Positions 30,766-31,222 of a stretch of DNA of 56,235 nucleotides are shown piece after piece. Every line of letters starts with the position of its first letter. Position 1 is the first letter of the stretch. The notes beneath the pieces were generated by a model. The model made no database searches and was not told the DNA's origin. It was given only the letters and a program-made list of their open reading frames with translations. Position numbers and translations under genes: made by a program. Origin of the DNA: Promethearchaeia archaeon (GTDB taxonomy: Archaea > Asgardarchaeota > Lokiarchaeia > Sigyniarchaeales > SOKP01); assembly GCA_029856145.1 (NCBI GenBank), contig JAHQWK010000006.1:1-56235 (forward strand), read 5' to 3'.

Positions 30766-30850
30766 GGTTTCAGACTAAGAATTATTCCGTATTAATTAAA
30801 GATATAATTTATTGCTTAAAAACTTAATTTTAGATGAAAATAAAAAGGTA

Positions 30851-31050
30851 AACCACGTATAACCACATAAAAAAGCGTGACCGGGTATTTTCCTTGTATG
30901 CCATGACCGTAAGCTAACTTACAGTTTGTAGTTTCCCATAGATCGCAACTACAGTACTATCTACAACGCGAAACAAGTTTAACTTCCGGGTTCGGATGGT
31001 TCCAGCGCAGTAGCGAATTGCTACTAATTTATGTGGTTATGAACGTAATT
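30851..31050 (-). repeat. Inverted repeat forming a processing stem with a BHB/BHL motif around the permuted 5S rRNA
   Basis: Perfect 13-bp inverted repeat 30859-30871 / 31028-31040, extended by 8 bp with G-U pairs on the minus strand; GCG-CUGG-AAC pairs with CCGG-UCA-CGC. Confidence 0.85.
30879..30999 (-). rRNA. rrf: 5S rRNA gene, circularly permuted (3' part 30999-30918, 4-nt linker, 5' part 30913-30879)
   Basis: Sense strand reads CCAUCCGAACCCGGAAGUUAA...UAGUACU...GGGAAACUACAAACUGUAAG-UUAG-CUUACGGUCAUGGC...AUACCCGGUC. All five 5S helices pair: I CUUACGG/CUGUAAG, II ACAAG/CUUGU, III ACCCGG/CCGGaaGU, IV CUGUAG/CUAUGG, V UUGUAG/CUACAA; loop E AGUA/GAA. Confidence 0.9.
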
Positions 31051-31057
31051 TTGAACC

Positions 31058-31105
31058 ATTTTATAAGGTCGGTTATTTTATAAGAAAATACTTACTTATA
31101 TATGG
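31058..31105 (-). promoter_or_regulatory. Candidate TATA boxes for the pre-5S transcript
   Basis: Minus strand has two CTTATAAAAT copies and ATATATAAG just upstream of the processing stem. Confidence 0.35.
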
Positions 31106-31222
31106 TTACAAGTAAATAGGAAAAATTAAAGCTAATAAAAAAACTTTACTGTAATATATTTAATAGATTTGGAGAAAGATAAGTTTAAAAAGGAATAATG
31201 TAATAAATTTACATTAGATTTA

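What the first reader, a model, noticed from the sequence alone, without database searches (positions are those of the whole stretch)
30851..31050. Processing stem with a BHB/BHL motif placed exactly at the 5S permutation break
Seen: leader and trailer form a perfect 13-bp stem (31040-31028 with 30871-30859), extended by 8 bp whose G-U pairs work only on the minus strand, plus a side hairpin (31025-31009). Inside, leader GCG-CUGG-AAC pairs with trailer CCGG-UCA-CGC: a 3-bp outer helix, a 4-bp central helix (CUGG/CCGG), and a 3-nt unpaired stretch 3' of the helix on each strand. The inner closing helix is not evident, so it is BHL-like. Established: the archaeal splicing endonuclease EndA cuts after the second bulge nucleotide and RtcB ligates, as for circular pre-16S/23S intermediates. 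Applying that rule cuts at 31000/30999 and 30879/30878 and releases 121 nt, a normal 5S length. Inference: the 5S is excised like an intron and circularised. The CCGG of helix III must first pair with the leader, implying a conformational switch.
Basis: partly seen in the sequence, partly recalled or inferred. Interest (0 to 1): 0.88.

Follow-up and report, generated by a model that had tools for sequence, protein, structure and literature searches.

The report
Splicing-type signal closing permuted 5S rRNA
The only 5S ribosomal RNA gene of this Asgard (Loki-type) archaeon is written back half first, and the flanking stem carries a tRNA-intron-type cut signal placed so that cutting and re-joining restores a normal 5S; public environmental RNA holds exactly that joint, most likely as a closed 121-base ring.

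Summary
On the minus strand there is a perfect 13-bp leader/trailer stem, an 8-bp extension, a side hairpin and a bulge-helix-bulge (BHB) core: GCG-CUGG-AAC pairs with CCGG-UCA-CGC. There is no inner helix.

- **RNA evidence.** RNA contigs from three separate metatranscriptome studies join 30999 back to 30879 (121 nt, no ambiguity). A fourth study shows the same joint in contig overhangs. None of them covers the leader or trailer.
- **Conservation.** A permuted-5S model hits 120 of 135 genomes of the family, in 12 of 13 genera. In 67 distinct versions, 99% of the seven core BHB pairs are kept, with compensatory changes.
- **A natural control.** The family uses two break sites 16 nt apart. The BHB has moved with the break, and each time it restores the native 5S sequence.
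- **Enzymes.** The genome encodes two EndA paralogues and one RtcB, and it has no canonical 5S gene.

Still open: whether the ring is the mature ribosomal 5S or an intermediate, and whether EndA and RtcB are the enzymes that act.

I found no paper on a permuted or circular archaeal 5S. The closest precedent is the permuted, circularised SRP RNA of Thermoproteus. This scan has already noted permuted Asgard 5S genes on other DNA (160 notes, at least 111 genomes).

The parts
31073..31083 (-). TATA-like box (UUAUAAAAUAA), the likely promoter of a stand-alone pre-5S unit. A second such box lies at 31059-31066.
   Evidence: Read and conserved in the genus alignment. Its role as a promoter is inferred. 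The region 30766-31222 is free of ORFs.
31043..31050 (-). Leader strand of the 8-bp stem extension. It pairs with 30851-30858 and includes two U.G pairs.
   Evidence: On the plus strand only 4 of the 8 pairs form.
31028..31040 (-). Leader strand of the perfect 13-bp processing stem.
   Evidence: A long stem with a covarying core is present in every genus examined.
31009..31025 (-). Side hairpin in the leader (GUAGC-AAUUC-GCUAC).
   Evidence: Compensatory change in L009 and L012.
31006..31008 (-). BHB outer helix, leader strand (GCG).
   Evidence: The three outer pairs are kept in 66-67 of 67 distinct versions, with 5-6 pair types each.
31002..31005 (-). BHB central 4-bp helix, leader strand (CUGG).
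   Evidence: Leader CUGG always accompanies trailer CCAG or UCAG.
30999..31001 (-). Leader 3-nt bulge AAC. The cut falls between 31000 and 30999.
   Evidence: RNA joint 30999->30879.
30879..30999 (-). Excised 121-nt permuted 5S rRNA. The order is loop C 3' part, helix III 3' strand, helix II 3' strand, helices V/IV, helix I closed by a tetraloop, helix II 5' strand, helix III 5' strand.
   Evidence: - RF00001 scores 28.9 bits, below the gathering score of 38, and this is the only 5S-like hit in the genome.
- The permuted-5S model R1 scores 123 bits.
- RNA cover is limited to this interval.
- The rotated product aligns end to end with canonical 5S and folds as 5S.
30906..30925 (-). Helix I closed by the tetraloop UUAG (30914-30917), which joins the ancestral 3' and 5' ends.
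   Evidence: pairs 66:75, 67:74 and 68:73 covary. The loop is UUAG, UUUG, UUCG or UCCG in relatives.
30881..30884 (-). BHB central helix, trailer strand (CCGG). This is also the 5' strand of helix III of the 5S.
30878..30880 (-). Trailer 3-nt bulge UCA. The cut falls between 30879 and 30878.
   Evidence: RNA joint.
30875..30877 (-). BHB outer helix, trailer strand (CGC).
30859..30871 (-). Trailer strand of the 13-bp stem.
30851..30858 (-). Trailer strand of the 8-bp extension.
30837..30846 (-). U5-A-U4 run directly after the stem, a likely archaeal oligo-U terminator.
   Evidence: Read. A T-run is kept in the genus alignment. Its function is inferred.

Best explanation
The interval is a stand-alone pre-5S rRNA transcription unit of a Lokiarchaeial (Promethearchaeia) MAG, and the 5S gene in it is circularly permuted.

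Proposed pathway:
1. The ancestral ends are joined by a tetraloop that closes helix I. The new ends lie inside loop C.
2. Leader and trailer pair into a long stem (8 + 13 bp, plus a leader hairpin). This presents a relaxed BHB motif: a 3-bp outer helix, a 4-bp central helix, two 3-nt bulges and no inner helix.
3. The splicing endonuclease cuts after the second nucleotide of each bulge. Here it is probably an (alpha-beta)2-type EndA made of the two paralogues.
4. RtcB joins C30879 to C30999. This recreates a 12-nt loop C and lets the native helix III form.
5. The product is a 121-nt RNA that most likely stays a covalently closed ring.

Shown here: the structure in the sequence, its conservation and covariation, the exact RNA joint, the absence of flank RNA, and the presence of the enzyme genes.

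Inferred: which enzymes act, the helix III switch, the promoter and terminator, and the ring as the final form.
For: 1. RNA. Cover is limited to 30879-30999(31000) in four metatranscriptome runs from four studies.
   - The joint 30999->30879 is in X1, X6 and X7, with no shared letters at the joint.
   - X5 overhangs read CCAUCCGAACCCGG after C30879.
   - X1, X6 and X7 each hold a 151-nt contig. The X1 and X7 contigs lie on the window as the whole 121-nt interval plus a repeat of its end. That fits 121 + 30, a closed cycle, if the contigs were assembled with 31-letter words (my assumption).
2. Family-wide conservation. Model R1 hits 120 of 135 genomes and 12 of 13 genera, nearly always as one copy.
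3. BHB placement. 74 of 79 loci have a perfect 4-bp central helix plus at least 2 outer pairs, exactly where the cut rule restores 5S.
   - Of the other 5, two fit by eye.
   - Three have one A.C mismatch next to the bulge.
4. Covariation. 465 of 469 cells are paired in the 7-bp core, against 16-41% in slid registers.
   - Central pair 2 is C-G, U.G or U-A.
   - The outer pairs have 5-6 types each.
5. Two break classes 16 nt apart. In class A the cuts fall at GGUC| and |CCAUCC. In class B they fall at CCGGAA| and |GUUAAAC. Each class carries its own correctly placed BHB, and both occur within genera g1, g14 and g17.
6. RNAalifold on class B recovers the BHB helix without constraints.
7. No other 5S-like hit in a 97% complete genome. 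The sister family has canonical 5S genes scoring 50-68 bits.
8. Two EndA-domain genes and one RtcB gene.
   - Paralogue 1 is nearest the crenarchaeal catalytic subunits.
   - Paralogue 2 has D where paralogue 1 has the motif His.
   - The (alpha-beta)2 form accepts relaxed BHBs (PMC7714728).
9. The ligated, rotated product aligns end to end with canonical 5S (79-84 identical of about 126 columns) and folds as 5S.
Against: - The single-sequence MFE and the class A consensus fold prefer native helix III to the BHB central helix.
- There is no inner helix, so this is not a canonical hBHBh' motif.
- All RNA evidence is from assembled contigs of environmental samples, not raw reads. Ends, strand and relative amounts cannot be measured, and the RNA may come from close relatives rather than this strain.
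- No enzyme assay exists.
- The cut-out leader-trailer by-product was not seen.
Confidence: 0.88

Rival explanations
1. The cutting and joining happen as described, but the ring is only an intermediate. It is re-opened in the helix I loop to give a linear 5S in the canonical order, as with permuted tRNAs and circular pre-16S/23S rRNA.
For: - This is the pathway for permuted tRNA genes and for circular pre-16S/23S rRNA (PMC12918454, PMC7758197).
- Contigs cannot show RNA ends.
Against: - The cap of helix I is a 4-nt loop (UUAG, UUUG, UUCG or UCCG) on a covarying stem, with no spacer or visible processing signal.
- In X1, at a mean word depth of only 5, the whole 121-nt cycle still closed.
- In X5, contigs over the helix I loop (depths 11-69) and over the joint (101) are of similar depth. 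So both links are present in a sizeable share of molecules.
- The Thermoproteus SRP RNA stays circular (PMC4731332).
Confidence: 0.3
2. The transcript is cut at the bulges but not ligated. The working 5S is then a linear permuted molecule with a nick in loop C, like the permuted mitochondrial 5S rRNAs.
For: Permuted mitochondrial 5S rRNAs exist (PMC4267664).
Against: Junction-spanning RNA contigs occur in at least three studies, with the joint exactly at the cut sites. Loop C is strongly conserved right across the joint.
Confidence: 0.04
3. The joint is made by other enzymes, for example another endonuclease together with a Pab1020-type RNA ligase, and the likeness to a BHB is incidental.
For: No enzyme was tested. 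The inner helix is missing. Other archaeal RNA circularising ligases are known (mentioned in PMC7758197).
Against: - The geometry is exact: a 4-bp helix, 3-nt bulges 3' of it on each strand, and cuts after the second bulge nucleotide.
- It is kept with covariation through two break classes.
- The inserts in relatives' 5S genes have the same motif.
Confidence: 0.06
4. The region is a decayed 5S pseudogene or an assembly artefact, and the RNA joints come from relatives that carry a normal 5S gene.
For: The Rfam score is below the gathering score.
Against: - The same layout appears in 120 genomes, including single-contig ones.
- No canonical 5S was found in the family, apart from two hits lying just downstream of sequence I read as a bacterial-type 23S 3' end, so likely contaminant contigs.
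- The RNA contigs contain both the helix I cap, which is specific to the permuted gene, and the joint.
Confidence: 0.01

Closest known systems
Permuted, circularised SRP RNA gene of Thermoproteus tenax (Plagens et al. 2015, eLife, PMC4731332; abstract read)
   Same: - An essential structured ncRNA gene is permuted.
- The new ends sit next to a functionally important loop.
[quoted passage not shown]
- The circular RNA is the functional form.
   Different: - Here the RNA is 5S rRNA, a universal ribosome component.
- The layout holds across a whole family of at least 120 genomes and beyond, not a few species.
- The break site differs between close relatives.
- Circularity and function have not been shown experimentally.
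[quoted passage not shown]
   Same: A long leader/trailer stem carries a BHB, and EndA and RtcB excise and circularise an rRNA.
   Different: - Those genes are not permuted, so ligation joins spacer remnants rather than restoring a conserved loop.
- The literature states that the pathway applies to 16S and 23S 'but not 5S' (PMC12918454).
- Here the unit stands alone, outside an rRNA operon: no rRNA or tRNA was found in the window.
Circularly permuted tRNA genes (Cyanidioschyzon merolae, Thermofilum; cited from my own knowledge and in PMC4267664)
   Same: The halves are in swapped order, a BHB sits at the junction of the new ends, and a circular intermediate forms.
   Different: The tRNA ring is re-opened by RNase P and tRNase Z at a spacer between the old ends. 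Here the old ends are joined by only a tetraloop.
Permuted mitochondrial 5S rRNAs (Valach et al. 2014, PMC4267664)
   Same: The 5S has helix I closed and its ends are elsewhere.
   Different: These are organellar, have no BHB, involve no re-joining, and the molecule stays linear and permuted.

Membership tests
BHB splicing motif (canonical hBHBh') | A 4-bp central helix | tested here: met
   CUGG pairs with CCGG (one U.G pair) in the window. The helix is 4/4 paired in 64 of 67 distinct family versions; the other 3 have A.C at the bulge-side pair. Definition taken from PMC7714728.
BHB splicing motif (canonical hBHBh') | Two 3-nt bulges on opposite strands, each 3' of the central helix | tested here: met
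   AAC at 31001-30999 and UCA at 30880-30878. The same geometry holds in 79 loci.
BHB splicing motif (canonical hBHBh') | An outer (exon-side) helix of at least 2 Watson-Crick pairs | tested here: met
   GCG pairs with CGC. The three outer pairs are kept in 66-67 of 67 versions with compensatory changes.
BHB splicing motif (canonical hBHBh') | An inner helix h' closing the second side of the bulges | tested here: not met
   C30998/C30885 and A30997/A30886 cannot pair. The motif is therefore a relaxed hBH/BHL form, not the canonical one.
BHB splicing motif (canonical hBHBh') | Cleavage after the second bulge nucleotide, followed by ligation of the ends | tested here: met
   The RNA joint 30999->30879 has no ambiguity and occurs in three studies. 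The cut rule itself is from my own knowledge.
BHB splicing motif (canonical hBHBh') | Cut by the splicing endonuclease EndA and sealed by RtcB | not testable with these tools
   The genes are present: two PF01974 matches and one PF01139 match.
Permuted ncRNA gene restored by splicing-type circularisation (tRNA, SRP RNA) | The two gene halves are in swapped order, with the ancestral ends joined | tested here: met
   The Rfam alignment fits only the 3' two thirds. Helix I is closed by a tetraloop with covariation. The rotated product is colinear with canonical 5S.
Permuted ncRNA gene restored by splicing-type circularisation (tRNA, SRP RNA) | The RNA carries the re-joined order | tested here: met
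Permuted ncRNA gene restored by splicing-type circularisation (tRNA, SRP RNA) | The product is a covalently closed circle | tested here: inconclusive
   151-nt contigs (121 + 30) in X1, X6 and X7, and similar depths over the helix I cap and the joint in X5, fit a ring. Contigs cannot exclude a mixture of linear forms.
Archaeal pre-rRNA processing stem (16S/23S type) | A long leader/trailer helix holding the BHB | tested here: met
Archaeal pre-rRNA processing stem (16S/23S type) | Part of a polycistronic rRNA operon transcript | tested here: not met
   No 16S, 23S or tRNA was found in the 56-kb window. The unit lies between two protein-coding ORFs and has its own TATA-like boxes and a U-run.

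The most novel reading that the evidence does not exclude
The mature 5S rRNA inside the ribosomes of this Asgard family is a covalently closed 121-nt ring with no free ends. It would be made by the tRNA-splicing machinery from a permuted gene. The break site has also moved repeatedly during evolution, perhaps by interconversion between a permutation junction and the BHB-shaped inserts seen in relatives' 5S genes.
Probability: 0.5. Interest if true: 0.9.

Novelty: new variant of a known kind. Interest (0 to 1): 0.84.

Why it matters
- **The usual picture of 5S.** 5S rRNA is normally treated as a simple linear transcript trimmed at its ends. The archaeal 5S maturation routes described in PMC10515664 involve end trimming and no BHB. 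A recent survey states that circularisation concerns 16S and 23S 'but not 5S' (PMC12918454).
- **What this changes.** Here an essential ribosomal RNA depends on the tRNA-splicing endonuclease and ligase, in a large family of archaea close to the eukaryotic stem.
- **Missing 5S genes.** It explains why standard models fail to find 5S genes in such genomes. The Rfam score here is below the gathering score, and Wu et al. 2022 (PMC8813620) report that 5S 'could not be predicted' in Heimdallarchaeum genomes. That bears on MAG quality standards that ask for a 5S gene.
- **A prediction to test.** It predicts a ribosome that holds a ring-shaped 5S.
- **A natural experiment.** The two break sites in close relatives, each with a co-moved BHB, show how permuted RNA genes evolve.

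Tried and rejected
- **Rfam at gathering score.** Nothing was found in the window. Only the E-value mode showed the partial 5S match.
- **blastn of the 200-nt stretch.** It found relatives only within the genus. A covariance model was needed for the rest of the family.
- **First BHB finder.** Ranking by the longest outer helix picked many spurious AT-rich matches. I replaced it with a search anchored on the 5S product.
- **Structure prediction.**
  - The unconstrained MFE of the window does not show the BHB central helix.
  - The consensus fold of the class A relatives does not show it either.
  - I therefore do not claim that thermodynamic prediction supports the motif in class A.
- **Two canonical 5S hits in the family** (G076 L029, G094 L041). 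They lie just downstream of sequence that I read as the 3' end of a bacterial-type 23S gene (by eye). Both genomes also carry the permuted gene. I treat the two hits as contaminant contigs.
- **Other families.** In f4 (L133, L134) and in f6 of another order (L135), permuted 5S genes exist. I could not place a convincing outer helix (f4) or a canonical motif (f6) by eye. L136 (G031) looks aberrant and was left aside.
- **Leader-trailer by-product.** No RNA contig covers the flanks, so its presence or absence cannot be judged.
- **Pattern scan of genome contigs.** It also returned a handful of matches in records labelled as bacteria, which I take to be chance matches.
- **Habitat.** The run labels (marine and other sediment, wetland, aquatic) are not used as a finding.

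Full report
**1. What is in the sequence**

- 31040-31028 and 30871-30859 are exact reverse complements (13 bp).
- After a 2-nt bulge, 31050-31043 pairs with 30858-30851 over 8 bp, two of them U.G pairs.
- The minus-strand fold forms all 21 pairs (-59.2 kcal/mol, z -3.8). The plus strand forms only four pairs of the extension.
- A hairpin lies at 31025-31009.
- It is followed by GCG-CUGG-AAC. The trailer reads CCGG-UCA-CGC.
- This has the geometry of a bulge-helix-bulge motif: a 3-bp outer helix, a 4-bp central helix, and a 3-nt bulge 3' of the helix on each strand. The definition is from PMC7714728.
- No inner helix can form.
- The interval lies between two ORFs. TATA-like boxes lie upstream and a U-run directly downstream.
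- Shuffled flanks give such a 4+3 bp core in an allowed register in 0.86% of trials.

**2. The RNA between the bulges is a permuted 5S**

- Rfam finds nothing at its gathering score.
- In E-value mode it finds a 28.9-bit 5S match (gathering score 38) that fits only from loop C onward.
- This is the only 5S-like hit in the 97% complete genome.
- Helix I is closed by a UUAG tetraloop. The 5' strands of helices II and III follow it.
- Joined at the predicted cuts and opened in the tetraloop, the sequence aligns end to end with the canonical 5S of the sister family (79-84 identical of about 126 columns). It folds into the three-way 5S shape.
- The re-formed loop C has 12 nt.

**3. RNA evidence**

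Public metatranscriptomes hold the RNA. I laid the contigs of four runs from four studies on 30780-31120.
- Cover is confined to 30879-30999, or to 31000 in relatives. Leader and trailer have none.
- X1, X6 and X7 each carry a joint '30999 -> 30879, goes back 121' with no shared letters at the joint.
- In X5, five contigs overhang 30879 with the letters that begin the RNA at 30999.
- X1, X6 and X7 each hold a 151-nt contig.
  - The X1 and X7 contigs lie on the window as the whole 121-nt interval plus a repeat of its end.
  - Most of the X6 contig comes from a relative.
  - If the contigs were built from 31-letter words (my assumption), 151 nt is 121 + 30, which is how a closed 121-nt cycle would be written out.
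- In X5, contigs over the helix I cap (depths 11-69) and over the joint (101) are of similar depth.

So the predicted cut sites and the ligation are confirmed to the nucleotide. The data fit a ring. Because these are contigs, a mixture of linear forms cannot be excluded.

**4. Conservation and covariation**

- blastn finds the stretch in 23 of 24 genomes of the genus.
- A covariance model of the permuted core hits 120 of 135 genomes of the family, in 12 of 13 genera, nearly always as one copy.
- The sister family, which holds single-contig genomes of 4.4 and 6.0 Mb, has canonical 5S genes scoring 50-68 bits.
- Record titles name the carriers as Promethearchaeota or Promethearchaeia MAGs, such as Loki_b31 and Loki_b32.

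The alignment shows two break classes.
- **Class A** (this window): the leader ends ...GCG-CUGG-AA| and the RNA starts CCAUCC. The RNA ends ...CCGGUC| and the trailer goes on A-CGC.
- **Class B:** the break lies 16 nt further on. The leader is GCG-CCGG-AA|G-UUAAAC and the trailer is ...CCGAACCCGGAA|A-CGC.
- In both classes, cutting after the second bulge nucleotide restores the same native sequence.
- Both classes occur within genera g1, g14 and g17.

Counts:
- Of 79 distinct loci, 74 have a perfect central helix and at least 2 outer pairs at the required place.
  - Two more fit by eye.
  - Three have one A.C mismatch.
- Over 67 distinct versions, 465 of 469 cells of the 7-bp core are paired, against 16-41% when the partner is slid by 1-3 nt.
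- Where helix III is CUGG/CCAG or CUGA/UCAG, the leader always has CUGG.
- The outer helix appears as GCG/CGC, AUG/CAU, ACA/UGU, UCU/AGA, CAU/GUG, AGA/UUU and CGU/ACG.
- RNAalifold recovers the class B BHB unaided.
- A long leader/trailer stem is present in every genus. Its core covaries: ACCACAU/AUGUGGU, GCCACAU/AUGUGGC, GCCAUAU/AUAUGGC and ACCGCAU/AUGCGGU.

**5. Enzymes**

- The genome has two EndA-domain genes and one RtcB gene.
- Paralogue 1 is closest to the catalytic subunits of the crenarchaeal heterotetramers.
- Paralogue 2 is 32% identical to it and has D at the place of the motif His.
- This suggests an (alpha-beta)2 enzyme, the form reported to accept relaxed BHBs (PMC7714728). That is an inference.

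**6. The conformational switch**

- In class A the trailer strand of the central helix is the 5' strand of helix III. In class B it is the 3' strand. So the BHB and helix III exclude each other by sequence.
- For the window, enforcing the BHB costs 1.8 kcal/mol relative to the MFE.
- The switch is therefore plausible but not shown.

**7. Comparison with what is known**

- The closest system is the permuted SRP RNA gene of Thermoproteus tenax. Its ends are cut by the splicing endonuclease and ligated into a functional circle (PMC4731332).
- BHB stems of pre-16S/23S rRNA and permuted tRNA genes work alike, but they either do not restore a permuted gene or re-open the ring.
- Full-text searches found no paper on a permuted or circular archaeal 5S.
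- PMC12918454 states that circularisation concerns 16S and 23S but not 5S.
- The archaeal 5S maturation routes described in PMC10515664 involve trimming of the ends by endo- and exonucleases, with no BHB.
- PMC8813620 reports that 5S genes could not be predicted in Heimdallarchaeum genomes.
- This scan has noted permuted Asgard 5S genes before on other DNA: 160 notes in at least 111 genomes. Those notes gave me the lead to the SRP RNA paper, which I then read myself.

**8. Verdict**

- Open points are the enzymes and whether the ring is the mature 5S. I put the ring at about even odds or slightly better.

Noticed in passing
L018, L022, L061, L077, L078, L086-L088, L091-L093, L098, L101, L126, L129 (relatives; loop C of their 5S genes): Many class B relatives carry an insert of about 30 nt in loop C that is itself shaped like a BHB. 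In L018 it reads UCCG-AA|A, an inner helix AACCA/UGGUU, then CGGG-AA|C. Cutting after the second bulge nucleotide would restore CCGAA|CCCGG exactly, so these look like splicing-type introns inside a 5S rRNA gene. The inner helix covaries (AACCA/UGGUU, AGUA/UACU, AUCCA/UGGAU).
   Followed up: partly
L010, L014, L015, L016, L024, L025 and others with a core of 131-133 nt (helix IV / loop D of the 5S): A second 30-nt insert has the full hBHBh' shape. In L010 it reads UUGC-GA|A, inner CAGACC/GGUCUG, then GUAG-AC|U. In L014 the central helix is UUGC/GCGA. Helix IV serves as the outer helix. Removing the insert restores the intron-less sequence of close relatives.
   Followed up: partly
L084 (G144) loop C; L117 (G080) helix I: There are two further insert sites. 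In L084 an insert of about 30 nt after CCCAU repeats part of the upstream 5S (GGAUAAUACCCGGUCCC). In L117 an insert of about 30 nt sits in the 3' strand of helix I. These may be traces of duplication or recombination that could move break sites.
   Followed up: no
L043 (G026, family f3); L133, L134 (G027, G029, family f4); L135 (G156, another order): Permuted 5S genes with helix I capped also occur outside the family.
- In L043 the break lies on the 5' side of helix III, with CGC-CCGA-AA|A and UCGG-AA|A-GCG.
- In f4 the central helices CCGU/ACGG and CCGA/UCGG covary, but no clear outer helix was found.
   Followed up: partly
G032:C1:1399892-1400758 (L033), sister family: Three canonical 5S genes lie in tandem about 375 nt apart. 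Such tandem arrays are the kind of substrate from which a permuted gene could arise.
   Followed up: no
window 31031-31038 / 30861-30868 and relatives: The stem core AACCACAU/AUGUGGUU is conserved in sequence across several genera, beyond what pairing alone needs. It may be a protein-binding site. In some class B leaders it can also pair with an upstream GUGGUU.
   Followed up: no
G000:C11:135835-136059 (+) and G000:C24:99005-99253 (-): Two EndA paralogues, 32% identical. The second has D where the first has the catalytic-motif His, which suggests a catalytic/structural pair of the crenarchaeal type in a Loki-type archaeon.
   Followed up: partly
L029 (G076:C68) and L041 (G094:C263): Canonical 5S genes scoring 81 and 52 bits lie just downstream of sequence that I read as a bacterial-type 23S 3' end. 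These are probably contaminant contigs in two MAGs of the family.
   Followed up: partly
L118 (G115:C109:5310-5382): A second, partial match to the permuted-5S model (45 bits) lies about 800 nt downstream of the full copy.
   Followed up: no
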